Part shown: piece by piece, positions 2,990 through 63,680 of the stretch
Layout of the letters: every line of letters begins with the position of its first letter
Position numbering within the stretch: position 1 is the stretch's first letter
Origin: Parcubacteria group bacterium GW2011_GWA2_48_9
GTDB lineage: Bacteria; Patescibacteriota; Patescibacteriia; UBA10025
Length of the DNA: 64,000 bases
Reading direction: 5' to 3'
Assembly (NCBI GenBank): GCA_001003705.1
Contig: LCPQ01000001.1
Span: 58,008-122,007, forward strand
Notes under the pieces: generated by a model
The model's input: only the letters and a program-made list of their open reading frames with translations
Databases searched by the model: none
Told to the model about the DNA's origin: nothing
Translations under genes and position numbers: made by a program

Positions 2990-3005
2990 TGTGTGGATAA
3001 CTCTC

Positions 3006-53946: not shown

Positions 53947-54738
53947 CTACTTTGCCAGCTCAGCATCAATAACCGAGGCAAACTGTTCGTACGGTACCGC
54001 TCCTGAGACGAGCGTCCCATTGACGAAGGTCGCGGGTGTTCCCTGTACGCCGTATTGGGTTCCTTGAGTTGTGTCGTCCTGTACTTTTGACTGGTATTTG
54101 CCTGAGTCGAGACAACCATCAAACTGGCTCTGGTTCAACCCGAGGCCCCCGGCAGCACTCTTAAAGTTTTCTATGCTTAACGTGCCGGCCGCATTCATCT
54201 CAAAAAGCTTATCATGCATCTCCCAAAACTTACCTTGCTCTGCCGCGCATTCAGAGGCCTCTGCAGCCTTCTGCGCCAAGGGATGAAGTGATGTCAAGGG
54301 AAAGTGCCGATAGATAAGCCGTACATCATCTCCATATGTGTCGAGAATCCGCTGCGTAGTTGGATTAACCTGTTCACAGAATGGGCACTGAAAATCTGAA
54401 TATTCCACTAATGTGACTTTCGCGTTTTCACCGCCGCGAATATAATCATCGTCGCGAATAGGAATGTCGACCACTGTTGGAGCAGCTGTGGGCGCAGCGG
54501 CAGTCGGGGCAGTATTTGTTGGGGCAACAGTGTTTGTAGTCGTCCCTGCAACTTTCCCGGTGTTTGAATTCTTAGAACCTACGCTGCCTCCCGTCCGAAG
54601 CATGGAGAAAGTCAGCATAAAACCTATGAAACTGATTGCGGCTATCCCTGAAACAAGTCCGAAGTAGAAGGTCATTTTCGATGAACCCTGGAATAAACCT
54701 TGTTCCGATTCTTGTGGCTGCGTACGTTCATGGTCCAT
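53947..54738 (-). CDS. DsbA-like thioredoxin-fold oxidoreductase with N-terminal TM anchor and a Thr/Ala-rich linker
   Basis: CxxC active site …DFQCPFCEQ… in a DsbA-type domain. It has its own promoter carrying a TACTAC-N5-GTAGTA operator. Confidence 0.8.
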   Translation of the reverse strand: MDHERTQPQESEQGLFQGSSKMTFYFGLVSGIAAISFIGFMLTFSMLRTGGSVGSKNSNTGKVAGTTTNTVAPTNTAPTAAAPTAAPTVVDIPIRDDDYIRGGENAKVTLVEYSDFQCPFCEQVNPTTQRILDTYGDDVRLIYRHFPLTSLHPLAQKAAEASECAAEQGKFWEMHDKLFEMNAAGTLSIENFKSAAGGLGLNQSQFDGCLDSGKYQSKVQDDTTQGTQYGVQGTPATFVNGTLVSGAVPYEQFASVIDAELAK

Positions 54739-54787
54739 ATTGGCATGCCTGAGGTTAATGGGTAAGATTAGGTAAATACTAAATATC

Positions 54788-54823
54788 TACTACACATTGT
54801 AGTAGAACTGTAGGATCAGTCAA
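54788..54823 (-). promoter_or_regulatory. Promoter of the DsbA-like gene with overlapping BlaI/CopY-type operator
   Basis: Minus strand reads TTGACT, a 16-nt spacer, then TACAAT. The perfect inverted repeat TACTAC-acatt-GTAGTA at 54788-54804 overlaps the -10. The core TACAnnnTGTA resembles BlaI/MecI/CopY boxes. Confidence 0.55.
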
Positions 54824-58711: not shown

Positions 58712-58960
58712 CTAGGAAACTAGTTCACGTGCCTCATATCCTGTCTTTCTGATTTGGTCAAAAATCTTCTCTCTCGTAATCTTTCCGGGGTCGAAGACAA
58801 TCTCGCCAGTGTTGTGCTGTTCGTTGATTTTCACCACTACGCCAATATCCTCGAGGTCCATGGTTATGAGCCGGCTACAAGATGCACAATGCATACCTGA
58901 AATAGTAATGTTCATTGTCTCCATATCATCTATTGCAAAAACACCGATCTCGGTCCCCAA
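58712..58960 (-). CDS. copZ: Heavy-metal-associated copper chaperone (CopZ-like)
   Basis: 82 aa with GMHCASC metal-binding motif and an HMA ferredoxin-like fold. Confidence 0.8.
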   Translation of the reverse strand: MGTEIGVFAIDDMETMNITISGMHCASCSRLITMDLEDIGVVVKINEQHNTGEIVFDPGKITREKIFDQIRKTGYEARELVS

Positions 58961-59883
58961 ACCATAAGGAGTATCCCGGCAAGCACGACAGCAAAATTCA
59001 GTAAAGTATACGGCCAGAATCCATACGGGCGTACTTCCTGGCGCCCGTGTTTATGTTCCTTATATACCAGATAACTCATCCCAGCCAAAATCATCAGCGT
59101 CGCGACAAAAAAGATAGGCAGAAATATGGTGAGACGATCGGAGAACATCATCACCGCTGTCATTGCCCCCATAGTACCCCCCATCAAACCAGCCATCATA
59201 CCTTCCATGATACCCATAATTCCACAGCAGGCACCTACCCATCCGCCTACGCCCATACCTATGATCATGCCAAAAACCGATCCAACAAACATGCCATTAG
59301 TAGTTCCAATGACAATACCAAGGAGTAATCCGGAAATCATTCCGATAGTCATACCGATCATCATACCTGTCATACAAGACACGGCTCCGCGAAAAGCGCG
59401 CAAGTGCCTGATTGCCCCGCCGGTAGCCACCACGGCAATTATGAGATAACCGATATACTGACCGTAGTTTCCCCAGAATGATTCAACATTCCAGAAGAAA
59501 ACGAAGTAAGTAAAATATGCGAGAGCTGCGACAACCACAAGTGTCCCCAGAGTGGATTTAATCACATTCTTTTCAAATGTGTACGCGGCTGGATCTTTGA
59601 AAAAAGATTGTTTGACGCGTCGCACTCGCTCGGACAATGATTCCCCACTGTCCCGGTCTTGCACAGACGTCTCAGACGCACTATAACCGACATTGGCGAT
59701 AGCTTCACGTACCTTTGAGAAGGGTACAATTGCCGGGTCATAACGAAGCTCAACGCGCTCACTTGTATACCGAATATCCTCCACCTCAACACCTATCCGC
59801 CCGAGAGCTTTTGTAATAGTTTTCTCACATGCATCGCAATGCATCCCCTGTATCCAAATGTCTTTGACGATTGTTTCGGTCAT
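58930..59883 (-). CDS. HMA-domain protein fused to a Met/Gly-rich polytopic membrane domain
   Basis: N-terminal HMA domain (…IQGMHCDACEKTI…), then several TM helices packed with MxxxM/GxxxG patterns (…MIGMTIGMISGLLLGIVIG…FGMIIGMGVGGWVGACCGIMGIMEGMMAGLMGG…). Confidence 0.6.
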   Translation of the reverse strand: MTETIVKDIWIQGMHCDACEKTITKALGRIGVEVEDIRYTSERVELRYDPAIVPFSKVREAIANVGYSASETSVQDRDSGESLSERVRRVKQSFFKDPAAYTFEKNVIKSTLGTLVVVAALAYFTYFVFFWNVESFWGNYGQYIGYLIIAVVATGGAIRHLRAFRGAVSCMTGMMIGMTIGMISGLLLGIVIGTTNGMFVGSVFGMIIGMGVGGWVGACCGIMGIMEGMMAGLMGGTMGAMTAVMMFSDRLTIFLPIFFVATLMILAGMSYLVYKEHKHGRQEVRPYGFWPYTLLNFAVVLAGILLMVWGPRSVFLQ

Positions 59884-59894
59884 AGTTATTAAGT

Positions 59895-60938
59895 TTATTG
59901 AGCTTTTGACTGCACTTCCTCGCAGGTCGTCGCATGCCCCGAGGGGTCTGTTATGCATGTCTTATTTTCGGGCATATTTAAAAGAAGCTGCGGAATAATC
60001 CCTGGACATACGGTCGACTGGGACATAAGATGCGCCGCCGTACCATCGACCGGCATTTGTGGGGCAGCAGAGATGGAGTGGGAAAAAACTATTGAACCCA
60101 TAAAAAACAACAGAGCTACAAGTGGGATAATGACAGCGACCCGCGTATGTGGGTAAAACTGTCTATTAATAATTCGCTCAATACGGTCATTAATAGCGGA
60201 AAAAGCGGGGATGGTGGCTGGAATCATTGTTTCACGGACTTTCAACGCCTTTACGAGCGCCCTACCCAGAAAATGATCCGTGCCCTGTTGTCGAATAGCT
60301 GCTTCATCAGCAGAAATTTCCAATAACGTTTTAATATATTCAGCGAACTTCGCGATCCCAGGGATAAACCAGAATACCTTTGTAAAAAAATGTACAATGA
60401 GAAGTCGGCTAGTGTCCCGCTTTATGCAATGGTGTTCTTCATGCAGAAGAACTCCGAGAAGTTCGCCATCGTTGAGCATTTCTATCATACCCCTACTGAT
60501 ATAGATAGTCGGGTGCGAAAAACCGGCACTTACAACGTAAGAACGGGAATCATCAATTTCAAGGACTGGAAATCCTACCCGTTCAGTAATTTTCTGAAGT
60601 CTCATGCTCATGTTCTTACTAGTTTTAGAGCGGAGTGAACGAATATAATTTGCAGTCCGGATAAACGTCACAGCTAGTAAAATAACCGCCACGAAGAAAA
60701 ACACACTTACTGCACCCAACAGGGCAATATTGATTGAGCTCAATACGACGTCTTTGCCCGTCAATCCCGCTATAAGCTGGCTGCAGGCATGAACGAATTC
60801 AGCAAGTACAACACCAACAAACCCTGAAATATGAGGGATAAGGTTAAGTGCGAGCACGAGAGCGCCTAAGACAAGCCCAAGGCCGCTTAATGCAAAAAGA
60901 GAGAACTGCCGACCGCTTGTTTGATCAGATACGTTCAT
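59895..60938 (-). CDS. M56-family (BlaR1/MecR1-like) membrane zinc metalloprotease signal transducer lacking a PBP sensor domain
   Basis: N-terminal polytopic domain with HExxH (…LLHEEHHCIKRD…). The C-terminal roughly 100 aa is extracytoplasmic and His/Met/Cys-containing (…HLMSQSTVCPGIIP…KTCITDPSGHATTCEEV…), with no transpeptidase-like motifs. Confidence 0.8.
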   Translation of the reverse strand: MNVSDQTSGRQFSLFALSGLGLVLGALVLALNLIPHISGFVGVVLAEFVHACSQLIAGLTGKDVVLSSINIALLGAVSVFFFVAVILLAVTFIRTANYIRSLRSKTSKNMSMRLQKITERVGFPVLEIDDSRSYVVSAGFSHPTIYISRGMIEMLNDGELLGVLLHEEHHCIKRDTSRLLIVHFFTKVFWFIPGIAKFAEYIKTLLEISADEAAIRQQGTDHFLGRALVKALKVRETMIPATIPAFSAINDRIERIINRQFYPHTRVAVIIPLVALLFFMGSIVFSHSISAAPQMPVDGTAAHLMSQSTVCPGIIPQLLLNMPENKTCITDPSGHATTCEEVQSKAQ

Positions 60939-61317
60939 TGCTTTTCTCCCTAATTTTCTTTTCGAGAAGCTCGAGTTTTTTCGGGTCTACCTTATCAAGC
61001 GTCTTGACAAACTCAGCGATGGCCACATCACCACACTCGGATATAAGCTTCTTGATGATATCGCCGGAAGCACGAGAAAAAAAAGATTCGCGTTTTTGCG
61101 CCGCTGAGTACTCAAAAGCGCCAGTGTGATCCTTTCGATTCAAGAGTCGCTTCTCCGCGAGGCGGTACATAACCGTCATAACGGTGGTATATGCTATGTG
61201 TCGCTTCTTCCGAAGAATTTTCACAACATCGCGCACCGTAACGGTACCCCGCTCCCAGATAATTTCCATAATTTGTTTTTCAAGCTCTCCGAGTAGGTAG
61301 AATGAGTGTTTTGTCAT
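60925..61317 (-). CDS. BlaI/MecI/CopY-family winged-helix repressor (without C-terminal CxC metal cluster)
   Basis: 130 aa (…LGELEKQIMEIIWERGTVTVRDVV…AYTTVMTVMYRLAEKRLL…) is the penicillinase-repressor fold. The C-terminus is a coiled coil with no CxCxxxxCxC motif. Confidence 0.85.
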   Translation of the reverse strand: MTKHSFYLLGELEKQIMEIIWERGTVTVRDVVKILRKKRHIAYTTVMTVMYRLAEKRLLNRKDHTGAFEYSAAQKRESFFSRASGDIIKKLISECGDVAIAEFVKTLDKVDPKKLELLEKKIREKSNERI

Positions 61318-61336
61318 AACTAGGGTGGATAATCTC

Positions 61337-61373
61337 TACTACGAAATGTAGTATCTCTGAATAAAGGTGTCAA
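61337..61373 (-). promoter_or_regulatory. Promoter of the copY-like operon with overlapping BlaI/CopY-type operator
   Basis: Minus strand reads TTGACA, a 17-nt spacer, then TACATT. The inverted repeat TACTAC-gaaat-GTAGTA at 61337-61353 overlaps the -10. Arrangement and arms are the same as at 54788-54804. Confidence 0.55.
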
Positions 61374-61425
61374 GAGGTGCTTATCGATTTGGCTCAAGGG
61401 CGTCCTGCCTGTCGGCAGACAGGGA

Positions 61426-61881
61426 TCAGGTCCCTACCGGTTCATGCTGAATACGTCGATATGCTGTGACGTTCGTGATCAAGATGCCAAGATAAAAAAG
61501 CAACCCATATACGCAAGCGGGTAAACCGGTAAAGGTAAGTTTGAGAATCCAAACCTCGTACACAATTAGAGTTGATGAAAAAAGTGTTCCAACGACACCG
61601 AGAATAATTAGCGCTTTGATCATGCTCTTCTTCGGTTTTCCCGCTAATGCTGCGGCTGACAGGAGAAATACCGTGAAGAACATTGCAAAACCGTATACAC
61701 AGGTGGGTAAACCGAAAATAAGTACCTTAGCTGGACCGCCGCACGAAACTAACCAATTCAAAGGACCTTGGTGACAACTAGGACCGATAAGATTCCAATA
61801 AGTTAAATACCCCGAGAGTAAACTCCCGGCAAATGCAAAAGTGAGGCTGACGATAGCTAGTTTACGATTACTTGTCATCAT
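61426..61881 (-). CDS. Small polytopic membrane protein with internally duplicated GLPxCVYG motifs and a Cys-rich loop
   Basis: 151 aa with 4 TM segments. Loop …IGPSCHQGPLNWLVSCGGP…. Two halves each contain GLP(T/A)CVYG(F/L) at a helix start. It lies downstream of arsR–YHS in the same orientation. Confidence 0.4.
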   Translation of the reverse strand: MMTSNRKLAIVSLTFAFAGSLLSGYLTYWNLIGPSCHQGPLNWLVSCGGPAKVLIFGLPTCVYGFAMFFTVFLLSAAALAGKPKKSMIKALIILGVVGTLFSSTLIVYEVWILKLTFTGLPACVYGLLFYLGILITNVTAYRRIQHEPVGT

Positions 61882-61910
61882 AGACTCATGTGGTTAACAA
61901 GAACTTACTA

Positions 61911-62387
61911 CTAAATATACCGGACAGCCCGTTTTTCAAATGCAGTTTTACAGCCAGAGGCGCAAAAGTAATATTCGCTCCGCTTATACCAAGAAGATAG
62001 AACAGCAGTCTCAGGAGAGAGTTTCATGCCGCATACAGGATCAATAACGCGCGGTATAGCAGCTTTTTGGCTTATTCGGCTCCATGGTTGAGACTTTTTC
62101 TGGTCAACGAGAATTCCGTGGATGGCATCAAAGGCTTTTGCCACATTATGATGTGCCAGGCAGTACGTCATTTCACGTCCCTCTCGCTTAGGAAGAACCA
62201 GGCGTTCTTGCCGCAACACCTGCAAATGCTGGCTGACGTTTGATTGCGCCATTCCGGTCATTCGCTGTATATCGGTTACCGTCAACGAATGGCTGCGCAA
62301 AAGCTGTATAATTTCCAGGCGTTTGGGGTTGGCAAGCGCTTGAAAAATGCCGCTGTCTTGTTTAAATGCGTCGTTATACATATTCAA
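61911..62387 (-). CDS. ArsR/SmtB-family transcriptional regulator fused to a C-terminal YHS/TRASH metal-binding domain
   Basis: HTH …LANPKRLEIIQLLRSHSLTVTDIQRMTGMAQSNVSQHLQVLR…. C-terminal …DPVCGMKL…YYFCASGCKTAF… is the YHS/TRASH Cys signature. Confidence 0.75.
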   Translation of the reverse strand: MNMYNDAFKQDSGIFQALANPKRLEIIQLLRSHSLTVTDIQRMTGMAQSNVSQHLQVLRQERLVLPKREGREMTYCLAHHNVAKAFDAIHGILVDQKKSQPWSRISQKAAIPRVIDPVCGMKLSPETAVLSSWYKRSEYYFCASGCKTAFEKRAVRYI

Positions 62388-62394
62388 TAAGCTG

Positions 62395-62422
62395 AATATA
62401 TCAAATCAGTTTATTCTGTCAA
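62395..62422 (-). promoter_or_regulatory. Sigma70-like promoter of the arsR–YHS gene
   Basis: Minus strand reads TTGACA (62417-62422), a 16-nt spacer, then TATATT (62395-62400). The -10 ends only about 7 nt from the start codon, so the mRNA may be leaderless or carry a very short leader. Confidence 0.45.
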
Positions 62423-62629
62423 CACGCGGTTATCCACAGCTACATCAACAACAAAAACCGTATACATACGTACGGACGTCAATAAGTTTATTTAATGTAC
62501 CTCTTCCTCCAGAACTCGGATTCGGTTCTGGGCGCCACGCACGCTCGCGGCTTCGAATCCAAGCTGCGTTACCAAAAAACCTTATCATCTTGCACAATGT
62601 TTGCTTGATTAACCTCGTCTATTCCCTTT

Positions 62630-62700
62630 CTCCGGGACTTGGATTCGAACCAAGATACCAGGCTTCAAAGGCCTGTGTCCTACCATTAGACGATCCCGGA
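62630..62700 (-). tRNA. tRNA-Gln (anticodon UUG)
   Basis: Folded by hand. Acceptor UCCGGGA/UCCCGGA with the U1-A72 pair typical of bacterial tRNA-Gln. D-arm GUCU-AAUGGUA-GGAC. Anticodon arm CAGGC-CUUUGAA-GCCUG. T-arm CUUGG-UUCGAAU-CCAAG. Discriminator G. No encoded CCA. Confidence 0.8.
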
Positions 62701-62762
62701 ATACACTAAAACAACTGGCCTATGCACGCACAGTATACGGATTCAGCTATACAGTGTAAAGA

Positions 62763-63680
62763 CTATACTTTGAGATACTTCCCTACTGCGACTGCCGAAC
62801 TGATCACGCTTAACCCCATAGCTATGACAAGCTGTAGAAGCATGATTGAAAGCAAGTGCGACGTGAAATACTGCAAGAGATTGAAATCATAGCCCTCAAA
62901 GAGTGTAGCAATGTAAGGAGAGACTACATGCACAAAAGGATACAGAAGTGCCATGGAAAACAGTACTGCTATGAACGCGTAGAGAATACTTTCTAATACA
63001 AACGGGAATCGGATGAACCAGTTCGATGCGCCAACAAGTTTCATAATACCTATCTCCTCACGATGCGTGTAAATCGTAATACGAATAGTGTTGAATATAA
63101 TAAGTATACTGATTAAAACAAATACACCCGTTACGAGCATTCCGATACGCTGCACCCTCGAAGCGATATCTGAAAGCCGGTCGGTGATCACCTGATTATC
63201 ATCGAAATTACTGTTTTCAATTAACTCCGCATAATCAGGGTCTTCGAGCATTTCGAGAATCAACGGGTAGTCTTCGATATTTTTCGCCTTTATCACGAGT
63301 GTCGCACCGAGCGGGTTCTCCTCAAGTTCATCAAGTGACTGGATAATCTCCGGATCATTTACGTGCCGCTCGCGAAAACGACGTTCAGCCTCTTCTTTTG
63401 AAACAAGGGTTACATTGTCGACGCTTCGTAATGACTCGAAACGATATTGAATATTCTGGATCTCTTGCTGGTCGACATCAGGGTTAAAGTACACTGATAC
63501 GTCAATCTTATTTTCAATAGATGATACCACTTCGCGTGCAACGACATTTACTCCGCCAACCATGCTCACAGAGAATAAGGTGAGTACGAGAATGATCACC
63601 GTTACCACGGAAAGCCAAATGTTTCGCCAGAAACCCTGAAGGGCAAAATGGAAAGCTCGAATGAGTGAAGTTACAATCAT
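62763..63680 (-). CDS. ftsX: Cell-division ABC transporter permease FtsX
   Basis: 305 aa with a TM segment, a large periplasmic loop, three further TM segments and the conserved FtsX C-terminal region. It is directly downstream of ftsE. Confidence 0.85.
   Translation of the reverse strand: MIVTSLIRAFHFALQGFWRNIWLSVVTVIILVLTLFSVSMVGGVNVVAREVVSSIENKIDVSVYFNPDVDQQEIQNIQYRFESLRSVDNVTLVSKEEAERRFRERHVNDPEIIQSLDELEENPLGATLVIKAKNIEDYPLILEMLEDPDYAELIENSNFDDNQVITDRLSDIASRVQRIGMLVTGVFVLISILIIFNTIRITIYTHREEIGIMKLVGASNWFIRFPFVLESILYAFIAVLFSMALLYPFVHVVSPYIATLFEGYDFNLLQYFTSHLLSIMLLQLVIAMGLSVISSAVAVGKYLKV

What the first reader, a model, noticed from the sequence alone, without database searches (positions are those of the whole stretch)
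61426..62476. ArsR–YHS/TRASH fusion regulator co-transcribed with a small membrane protein carrying duplicated GLPxCVYG motifs, with an upstream hairpin/inverted repeat
The regulator joins an ArsR/SmtB HTH to a C-terminal YHS/TRASH Cys motif (DPVCGM…YYFCASGCK). The downstream 151-aa membrane protein has an internal duplication: GLPTCVYGF and GLPACVYGL each begin a helix. It also has a loop with two spaced Cys (PSCHQGPLNWLVSCGGP), suggestive of a thiol-based metal or redox site. Upstream of the -35 lies the imperfect palindrome CCGTATACATACGTACGG (62458-62475). On the minus strand this is followed by a T-run, so it could terminate tRNA-Gln read-through rather than act as an operator. The -10 lies only about 7 nt from the start codon.
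Basis: partly seen in the sequence, partly recalled or inferred. Interest (0 to 1): 0.5.

Follow-up and report, generated by a model that had tools for sequence, protein, structure and literature searches.

The report
Copper regulator plus unusual VKOR-like protein
This is the head of a copper-resistance gene cluster in a tiny uncultivated (Patescibacteria) bacterium: a repressor with a built-in cysteine metal-sensing domain is transcribed together with a membrane enzyme related to vitamin K epoxide reductase. That enzyme has lost the family's hallmark CXXC site and carries a re-arranged pair of cysteines instead.

The parts
62629..62701 (-). tRNA-Gln(UUG), the upstream neighbour. Degenerate copies of its 3' half follow it.
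   Evidence: ARAGORN; Rfam tRNA, 65 bits; alignment with L081.
62458..62475 (-). It is weak and not conserved, and is probably insignificant or at most a weak terminator.
62430..62438 (-). TGTGGATAA, the 9-mer of a DnaA box, 7 nt upstream of the -35 box. It recurs upstream of promoters in Patescibacteria loci.
62417..62422 (-). -35 box, TTGACA.
   Evidence: TTGAC lies at the equivalent place in 46 of 55 related loci.
62395..62400 (-). Extended -10 box, TGnTATATT. Its last five bases belong to the left operator arm.
62380..62399 (.). Predicted ArsR-YHS operator, ATATTCA-N6-TGAATAT (family core ATATTC-N8-GAATAT). It overlaps the -10 box, the likely transcription start and the first two bases of the ATG.
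   Evidence: It is the only copy in the window. Arms are conserved and the spacer varies in L081-L088. 55 of 65 metagenome loci carry it at the same offset.
61911..62381 (-). ArsR/SmtB-YHS fusion regulator, 156 aa, with the conserved ATG start.
   Evidence: P0173 is 100% identical (Kerfeldbacteria MAG).
62196..62330 (-). Winged helix-turn-helix (Pfam HTH_5).
   Evidence: NCBIfam HTH_metalloreg, 83 bits.
61917..62048 (-). YHS/TRASH-type metal-binding domain, DPVCGM...YYFCASGC.
   Evidence: The Asp and three Cys are invariant.
61426..61881 (-). VKOR-like four-TM membrane protein lacking CXXC (called VKORL here).
61732..61788 (-). Extracytoplasmic loop carrying the invariant pair C36 and C47.
   Evidence: The model shows a beta-hairpin here.
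61687..61713 (-). Motif 1, GLPTCVYGF, at the start of TM2. C61 aligns with an Ala of canonical VKOR.
61501..61527 (-). Motif 2, GLPACVYGL, at the start of TM4. C123 aligns with the first Cys of CXXC and G126 with the second.
61404..61430 (-). GC-rich stem-loop over the VKORL stop codon, with no U-run. It may be a weak terminator or processing site.
   Evidence: -21.7 kcal/mol, z = -1.0.
61336..61354 (.). Operator-like repeat CTACTAC-N5-GTAGTA in the promoter of the next unit (BlaI-like repressor). It marks the start of a separate regulon.
   Evidence: A second copy lies at 54787-54805, upstream of dsbA.

Best explanation
The locus is a two-gene, copper-responsive transcription unit at the head of a copper and thiol homeostasis island.

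1. Regulator. The ArsR-YHS protein is predicted to bind as a dimer to ATATTC-N8-GAATAT. That site overlaps the -10 box, the transcription start and the ATG of its own almost leaderless mRNA, so binding would repress transcription. Cu(I) (or Ag(I)) bound by the Asp and three Cys of the C-terminal YHS domain is predicted to release it. Shown here: domain composition, invariant ligands, operator conservation, and linkage to CopA. Inferred: the identity of the metal and the release mechanism.

2. Co-transcribed membrane protein. This VKOR-superfamily protein most likely acts as a thiol-disulfide oxidoreductase that re-oxidises a DsbA/MdbA-type thioredoxin-fold partner outside the cell. A DsbA is encoded in the same island at 53947-54738. 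The proposed electron path is partner, then loop pair C36/C47, then C123, then a C61-C123 disulfide between TM2 and TM4. That disulfide would replace the intrahelical CXXC. The final electron acceptor is unknown; published Parcubacteria genomes lack quinone biosynthesis.

3. Physiological role. Derepression by copper would raise this activity together with CopA efflux. That would keep exported cysteines oxidised, or the cop-encoded cupredoxin and DsbA proteins in the right redox state, during copper stress.

4. History of the locus. The ancestral order ArsR-YHS, VKORL, cupredoxin, CopA has been split in this genome. A cassette encoding BlaI, BlaR1, an HMA-membrane protein, CcdA and a cupredoxin, with its own operator, now lies between VKORL and the cupredoxin.
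For: Regulator:
- Pfam and NCBIfam domains.
- Invariant D/C/C/C, and no conserved alpha3 or alpha5 ArsR metal sites.
- It is the first gene of CopA, DsbD_2-cupredoxin, CopZ operons in distant Patescibacteria. CopA or HMA lies downstream in 39 of 67 metagenome loci, most of the others being short contigs.
- The operator has conserved arms and a variable spacer. It sits at a fixed offset ending in the ATG in 54-55 of 65 loci, with TTGAC upstream in 46 of 55.
- It is the only copy in the window.
- CopA has the CPC, YN and MxxSS copper signatures (read from the sequence).
- A YHS domain has been shown to act as a copper sensor in an adenylyl cyclase (PMC4626032). Archaeal CopT is an HTH plus a TRASH domain (PMC5328820).

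VKORL:
- Pfam VKOR above the gathering score.
- Four invariant Cys, all on the outer face.
- The LP residues of the two motifs form a beta-bridge in the model, which places C61 and C123 side by side.
- P0095 is the same domain followed by a fifth TM helix and a CPHC thioredoxin domain. It aligns over its full length with Synechococcus VKOR-Trx, E = 5.5e-19.
- DsbA lies directly upstream in 9 of 80 species loci, including one half-size archaeal gene.
- A published survey found the VKOR family adjacent to MdbA-like oxidoreductases in 88 of 750 CPR genomes (PMC6744442).

Copper link of the close clade, under three different arrangements:
- ArsR-YHS, VKORL, cupredoxin (4-nt overlap), CopA.
- Divergent from a CsoR-cop operon.
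- CopA, DsbD_2-cupredoxin, CopZ, DsbA, GpsA, VKORL.
- The window's 123-aa cupredoxin is 75% identical to the one that overlaps VKORL in L083.
Against: - No experiment exists on any member of either family.
- The second Cys of CXXC is the one that attacks quinone in studied VKORs (my recollection of the VKOR structure literature). It is absent here, so the chemistry cannot simply be copied from VKOR.
- Most family members (about 60 of 80 species loci) have no DsbA or cop gene nearby. The copper role may therefore be specific to this clade.
- In this genome the only operator copy controls just the two genes. The rest of the island has a different repressor.
- Why a disulfide-forming enzyme should help under copper stress is inferred, not shown.
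- A YHS Asp/Cys3 site could also bind Zn or Cd.
Confidence: 0.55

Rival explanations
1. The VKOR-like protein is not a redox enzyme. It is a membrane copper-handling protein, such as a Cu(I) binding site, a chaperone or a conduit. C61 and C123, each preceded by Pro as in the CPC motif of P-type ATPases, together with the loop Cys, would ligate Cu(I) at the outer face and pass it to the cupredoxin-like protein encoded next to it.
For: - The close clade is always embedded in cop clusters and is translationally coupled to a Cupredoxin_1 gene.
- CXXC has been lost and a two-helix Cys pair gained.
- Parcubacteria lack quinone biosynthesis, which removes the normal VKOR substrate (PMC4508563).
Against: - It is homologous to VKOR, with a retained loop Cys pair.
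- It is fused to a CPHC thioredoxin domain exactly as in Synechococcus VKOR.
- DsbA lies directly upstream in 9 species loci.
- Most family members are not near any copper gene.
Confidence: 0.15
2. The ArsR-YHS regulator senses something other than copper, for example Zn/Cd or thiol oxidation of its three Cys. The operon would then be a general envelope redox-stress unit rather than a copper one.
For: - Asp/Cys3 TRASH sites bind Cd or Zn in ribosomal protein L24e (PMC4626032, introduction).
- The co-transcribed gene is a thiol oxidoreductase homologue.
- In this genome the regulator's only operator does not precede CopA.
Against: - In about 40 independent loci the regulator is immediately followed by a CopA-type ATPase with an HMA domain and CopZ.
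- The window's CopA carries Cu(I)-type transmembrane motifs.
- A YHS domain has been shown to respond specifically to copper (PMC4626032).
Confidence: 0.12
3. The upstream palindrome at 62458-62475 is a functional element: either the operator or the intrinsic terminator of tRNA-Gln.
For: A 5-bp stem is followed by TTTTTGTTGTT on the minus strand. It lies between the tRNA and the -35 box.
Against: - The number of terminator-like sites in the region equals the chance expectation.
- Folding energy is no better than for shuffled sequence.
- The stem is destroyed in the closest relative while the flanks are conserved.
- A far better conserved operator exists 60 nt downstream.
Confidence: 0.05

Closest known systems
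Bacterial VKOR (Synechococcus VKOR-Trx, PDB 3KP9/4NV2; Mycobacterium and Actinomyces VKOR acting with DsbA/MdbA)
   Same: - Four-helix membrane bundle.
- SxYLxY-type TM1.
- Extracytoplasmic loop with a Cys pair, then G-(I/L)-P at the start of TM2.
- A thioredoxin-fold partner, either fused (P0095) or encoded next door.
- Best structural and sequence match.
   Different: - The TM4 CXXC is C-V-Y-G; the second Cys is lost.
- A new invariant Cys lies on TM2, where VKOR has Ala.
- The loop Cys spacing is 7-10 residues, against 5 in Synechococcus VKOR.
- The conserved loop Ser/Thr is not aligned.
- TM1-TM2 and TM3-TM4 are recognisably duplicated, and half-size homologues exist.
- The host lineages are reported to lack quinone synthesis.
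DsbB (E. coli)
   Same: It is a membrane four-helix enzyme that re-oxidises DsbA through two Cys pairs, so it is a functional analogue.
   Different: No sequence match was detected here. DsbB has a different arrangement of Cys pairs and depends on quinone.
Archaeal CopT/CopR (Sulfolobus copTMA/copRTA): an HTH plus a C-terminal TRASH domain
   Same: A DNA-binding HTH is fused to a Cys-rich TRASH/YHS-type metal domain, encoded next to copA and controlling it in response to copper (PMC5328820).
   Different: The DNA-binding domain here is an ArsR/SmtB winged helix, the organism is bacterial, and the operator is different. Homology between the two DNA-binding domains was not tested.
ArsR/SmtB metalloregulators (SmtB, CzrA, CadC, BxmR)
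   Same: Winged HTH (NCBIfam HTH_metalloreg, 83 bits). The protein is autoregulated from an AT-rich inverted repeat containing TGAA/TTCA-like arms that overlap the promoter.
   Different: None of the classical alpha3N or alpha5 ligand sets is conserved. Sensing is assigned to an appended YHS domain, about 20 residues beyond the core.
YHS domain of the Mycobacterium phlei adenylyl cyclase
   Same: A C-terminal YHS domain with one Asp and three Cys acts as a copper-sensing input module (PMC4626032).
   Different: The output there is a cyclase, not DNA binding.
CsoR-controlled cop operons
   Same: The regulated module is the same: CopA, CopZ and DsbD_2-cupredoxin. In L090 and L091 a CsoR-family gene replaces ArsR-YHS next to VKORL.
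   Different: CsoR has an unrelated fold and metal site.

Membership tests
VKOR family (Pfam PF07884) | Four-TM helical bundle with VKOR-like sequence. | tested here: met
VKOR family (Pfam PF07884) | CXXC redox motif at the start of TM4. | tested here: not met
   The motif is C123-V-Y-G126. No CXXC at this position occurs in nearly all of about 170 relatives; only two distant hits have CLYC. The alignment to 3KP9 places Gly opposite the second Cys.
VKOR family (Pfam PF07884) | Pair of Cys in the extracytoplasmic loop between TM1 and TM2. | tested here: met
   C36 and C47 are invariant. The first aligns with Cys50 of Synechococcus VKOR. The spacing differs.
VKOR family (Pfam PF07884) | Conserved loop Ser/Thr after the loop Cys pair. 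| tested here: inconclusive
   The aligned positions are Gly-Gly. A Ser/Thr instead precedes C47 in most members.
VKOR family (Pfam PF07884) | Works with a thioredoxin-fold (DsbA/Trx-like) partner. | tested here: met
   Genomic evidence only: the P0095 fusion to a CPHC Trx domain and DsbA directly upstream in 9 of 80 loci.
VKOR family (Pfam PF07884) | Reduces a quinone. | not testable with these tools
   This needs biochemistry. Parcubacteria are reported to lack quinone biosynthesis (PMC4508563).
ArsR/SmtB metalloregulators | Winged HTH of the ArsR type. | tested here: met
   HTH_5 at 51.7 bits. NF033788 at 83.4 bits against a cut-off of 55.
ArsR/SmtB metalloregulators | One of the known metal sites (alpha3/alpha3N CXC, or alpha5 D-x-H...H-x-x-E/H). 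| tested here: not met
   There is no Cys in the alpha3 region. The His residues in the alpha5 region are not conserved among homologues.
ArsR/SmtB metalloregulators | Autoregulation through an inverted repeat overlapping its own promoter. | tested here: met
   Sequence and comparative evidence only: the 6-8-6 repeat lies over the -10 box and the start codon in 55 of 65 loci. Binding was not tested.
YHS/TRASH metal-binding domain (PF04945) | One Asp and three Cys in D-x-x-C ... C-x-x-x-C. | tested here: met
   YHS at 40.8 bits against a cut-off of 30.3. D114, C117, C140 and C144 are invariant.
Archaeal CopT/CopR regulators | An HTH plus TRASH regulator encoded beside copA. | tested here: inconclusive
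   The architecture and the CopA linkage are analogous. Homology of the DNA-binding domains was not tested, so this is an analogue, not a member.

The most novel reading that the evidence does not exclude
The PxCVYG proteins of Patescibacteria and DPANN archaea may be a quinone-independent branch of the VKOR/DsbB world. In this reading the catalytic disulfide forms between two pseudo-symmetric helices. The half-size archaeal genes, which would work as homodimers, preserve the ancestral state. Electrons would then go to a non-quinone acceptor: in the cop-linked clade, the translationally coupled cupredoxin-like protein or copper itself. That would couple disulfide formation directly to copper redox chemistry in organisms without respiratory chains.
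Probability: 0.15. Interest if true: 0.8.

Novelty: new variant of a known kind. Interest (0 to 1): 0.55.

Why it matters
1. Regulator. This gives the ArsR/SmtB family a new kind of sensory site, an appended YHS domain. It also gives the reduced genomes of Patescibacteria a testable copper regulon. The operator and promoter are precisely defined and very widely conserved, and the message is probably leaderless.

2. VKOR-like protein. The clade shows that the VKOR fold can keep its thioredoxin partner while losing the CXXC motif thought to be essential for quinone reduction. This happens in lineages reported to lack quinones. That raises a concrete open question: what accepts the electrons of disulfide formation in these cells?

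3. Evolution of the fold. The clear two-fold internal repeat and the free-standing half-size genes offer a simple route for the origin of VKOR-type four-helix oxidoreductases.

Tried and rejected
- The hairpin as operator or terminator was rejected.
- Rfam found nothing between the tRNA and the promoter or elsewhere in 61300-62800, apart from tRNA-Gln.
- I searched the window for a second ArsR-YHS operator, for example upstream of CopA. There is none.
- I asked whether ArsR-YHS is a general neighbour of the VKOR-like gene. It is not. None of 80 species loci showed it adjacent, and none of 67 regulator loci has the VKOR-like gene downstream. The pairing is confined to the window's close relatives.
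- I asked whether the DnaA-box 9-mer next to the promoter is specific to this regulator. It is not; it recurs at many Patescibacteria intergenic sites.
- NCBIfam has no model for the membrane protein.
- Literature searches found no description of a VKOR clade without CXXC. One phylogeny explicitly removed sequences lacking the conserved residues (PMC4555120).
The closeness of C61 and C123 therefore rests on the secondary-structure bridges in the model, not on a measured distance.

Full report
**What is there.** All genes below lie on the minus strand.
- ftsE and ftsX (62763-63680) and tRNA-Gln (62629-62701) come first.
- A sigma-70-type promoter follows: TTGACA at 62422-62417, a 16-nt spacer, and TGnTATATT with its hexamer at 62400-62395. 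It matches 11 of 12 consensus positions.
- Next is a 156-aa ORF. I place its start at the ATG at 62381. Every relative starts there, and an identical 156-aa protein is on record from a Kerfeldbacteria MAG.
- After a 29-nt unstructured gap comes a 151-aa membrane protein (61426-61881).
- The following genes have their own promoter:
  - a BlaI-like repressor and a BlaR1-like M56 protease;
  - an HMA-domain protein with a Gly/Met-rich membrane domain;
  - CcdA and two Cupredoxin_1 proteins;
  - a CopA P-type ATPase with CPC, YN and MxxSS motifs;
  - DsbA and a VTT/DedA protein.
- The finding therefore sits at the head of a copper and thiol island in a Patescibacteria genome.

**The regulator.**
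- Pfam finds HTH_5 and YHS, both above threshold. NCBIfam finds the ArsR/SmtB metalloregulator model.
- In 21 homologues down to 39% identity, the YHS Asp and three Cys are invariant. No classical ArsR alpha3 or alpha5 ligand set is conserved.
- Context is consistent across Patescibacteria, including Saccharibacteria. The gene is immediately followed, often with overlapping stop and start codons, by CopA, then a DsbD_2-cupredoxin fusion, then a CopZ-like HMA protein.
- A metagenome scan gave 67 distinct loci. In 39 of them a CopA or HMA gene lies downstream on the same strand, and most of the rest are contigs that end too soon.
- Published work shows a YHS domain acting as a copper-specific input module (PMC4626032). 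It also describes archaeal CopT, an HTH plus a TRASH domain next to copA (PMC5328820).
- I therefore read this protein as the copper sensor of the Patescibacteria cop operon. It is a bacterial, ArsR-based counterpart of CopT.

**The operator.**
  - The terminator scan finds no more sites than chance.
  - The fold is no more stable than shuffled sequence.
  - In the closest relative the stem is lost, while the flanking sequence is nearly identical.
- A different inverted repeat, ATATTCA-N6-TGAATAT (62380-62399), overlaps the -10 box and ends in the start codon.
  - It occurs once in the window.
  - In relatives whose regulators are 40-69% identical, the arms are identical and the spacer differs.
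  - Of 65 metagenome loci with enough upstream sequence, 60 have the repeat with at most two mismatches. In 54 it starts exactly 18 nt before the A of the ATG.
  - The conserved core is ATATTC-N8-GAATAT. TTGAC lies at the -35 position in 46 of 55 loci.
- This is the signature of an autoregulatory operator that blocks RNA polymerase.
- The fixed 13 nt between the -10 box and the ATG, with no Shine-Dalgarno sequence, implies a leader of only a few nucleotides. The transcription start itself is inferred.

**The membrane protein.**
- Pfam assigns it to VKOR, just above the gathering score and only over TM1-TM3.
- A family profile hits the Synechococcus VKOR structures.
- The positive-inside rule puts all four Cys on the outer face.
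- The defining VKOR CXXC is absent.
  - Residue-level alignments place C123 opposite the first Cys and G126 opposite the second.
  - C61 on TM2 lies opposite an Ala.
- This is a clade property, not a local mutation. C36, C47, C61 and C123 are invariant. Nearly all of about 170 relatives from Patescibacteria and DPANN archaea carry PxC[VA]YG on both TM2 and TM4. Only two distant hits have a canonical CLYC.
- In the model the Leu-Pro residues of the two motifs form a beta-bridge. The two Cys therefore start neighbouring helices side by side.
The two halves align with 99% probability and score 93, against at most 18.7 for column-shuffled controls.
- At least 17 DPANN loci encode complete 70-83-aa half-proteins (TM1, loop, TM2) with no second half nearby. 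These would have to pair to build the bundle.

**What it does.**
- Three observations favour a disulfide relay over a pure metal site.
  - One relative (P0095) has the same domain followed by a fifth helix and a CPHC thioredoxin domain. It is collinear with Synechococcus VKOR-Trx over 270 residues.
  - A DsbA gene lies directly upstream in 9 of 80 species loci, including one half-size archaeal gene.
  - An earlier survey of CPR genomes found VKOR-family genes next to MdbA-like oxidoreductases (PMC6744442).
- The missing Cys is the one that reacts with quinone in studied VKORs (my recollection of the structural literature). Parcubacteria genomes are reported to lack quinone biosynthesis (PMC4508563). 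The acceptor and the final chemical step are therefore open.
- The copper connection is strong for the clade closest to the window, and it appears in three arrangements.
  - ArsR-YHS, VKOR-like, cupredoxin (4-nt overlap), CopA.
  - Divergent from a CsoR-cop operon.
  - CopA, DsbD_2-cupredoxin, CopZ, DsbA, GpsA, VKOR-like.
- Further species loci show the same linkage.
- The window's 123-aa cupredoxin is 75% identical to the one overlapping the VKOR-like gene in L083. This genome has therefore acquired the BlaI to Cupredoxin(145 aa) cassette between them.
- Most distant family members have no copper neighbours. The family is probably a general envelope oxidoreductase that this lineage recruited to the cop regulon.

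**Verdict.** The coding observations are confirmed and the hairpin is not meaningful. The best-supported explanation is a copper-derepressed two-gene unit. It encodes an ArsR-YHS autorepressor with a newly defined operator, and a VKOR-derived thiol oxidoreductase with a relocated active-site Cys pair. Both are new variants of known kinds, and neither has been studied experimentally. The main open question, and the main interest, is how a VKOR-like enzyme without CXXC, in quinone-poor organisms, disposes of electrons. A related question is whether copper or the adjacent cupredoxin is involved.

Noticed in passing
window 62430-62438 and 2992-3000; L014, L084 and many other loci: The 9-mer TGTGGATAA, a perfect DnaA-box sequence, lies 5-8 nt upstream of TTGAC -35 boxes. 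It often comes directly after terminator-like hairpins in Patescibacteria intergenic regions. There are 23 copies in 1.18 Mb of loci. It may be a lineage-wide promoter-proximal element.
   Followed up: partly
L017, L026, L030, L037-L039, L041 (about 60-70 nt downstream of TGTGGATAA): Several of these TGTGGATAA sites are followed by a conserved stretch, ...GTTCCAGGAAGTGG..., in unrelated loci. This may be the start of a conserved non-coding RNA gene.
   Followed up: no
window 61336-61354 and 54787-54805: The inverted repeat CTACTAC-N5-GTAGTA(G) occurs twice, against 0.07 expected. One copy overlaps the -10 box of the BlaI-like gene and the other lies between copA and dsbA. It is the likely operator of the BlaI-like repressor. 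That would place dsbA and the main cop genes in a regulon separate from the ArsR-YHS one.
   Followed up: partly
window 59895-61317: The BlaI-like repressor lacks the CopY Cys motif. It is paired with a BlaR1-like M56 protease (HEEHH) that has no penicillin-binding domain but has a Cys/His/Met-containing C-terminal tail. This is a candidate proteolytic sensor of extracytoplasmic copper or thiol stress.
   Followed up: no
window 58930-59958; L056 and L079 (archaeal): A protein with an HMA domain and a Gly/Met-rich membrane domain (GMMxGM repeats, CC motif) is 32% identical over about 300 residues to proteins in Micrarchaeota and Norongarragalinales loci. Those loci also carry BlaI, BlaR1, cupredoxin and CopA genes. 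This suggests a copper cassette shared between DPANN archaea and Patescibacteria.
   Followed up: partly
window 62476-62628; L081 7128-7400: Between tRNA-Gln and the promoter lie degenerate copies of the tRNA's T-arm and 3' end (CTTGGATTCGAAG...CGAATCCGAGTTCTGGAG). There is one copy in the window and two in the closest relative. They look like scars of integration at the tRNA gene, so the copper island may be, or have been, mobile.
   Followed up: partly
L052, L054, L056-L058, L064-L071, L075, L077-L079: These loci carry free-standing 70-83-aa half-VKOR-like genes (TM1, loop, TM2 with PTCVYG). They are mostly in DPANN archaea, and one is in a Gemmatimonadaceae MAG. Some have only one loop Cys. 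Several lie near CopA or DsbA.
   Followed up: partly
L090 and L091, 4225-4644: A conserved 137-138-aa gene with no Pfam match follows the CsoR-family gene and precedes the HMA-DsbD_2-cupredoxin gene in the cop operon that is transcribed divergently from VKORL.
   Followed up: no
window 61404-61430: A GC-rich stem-loop (-21.7 kcal/mol) overlaps the VKOR-like stop codon and has no U-run. It is unclear whether it terminates or merely attenuates read-through into the BlaI-like unit.
   Followed up: partly
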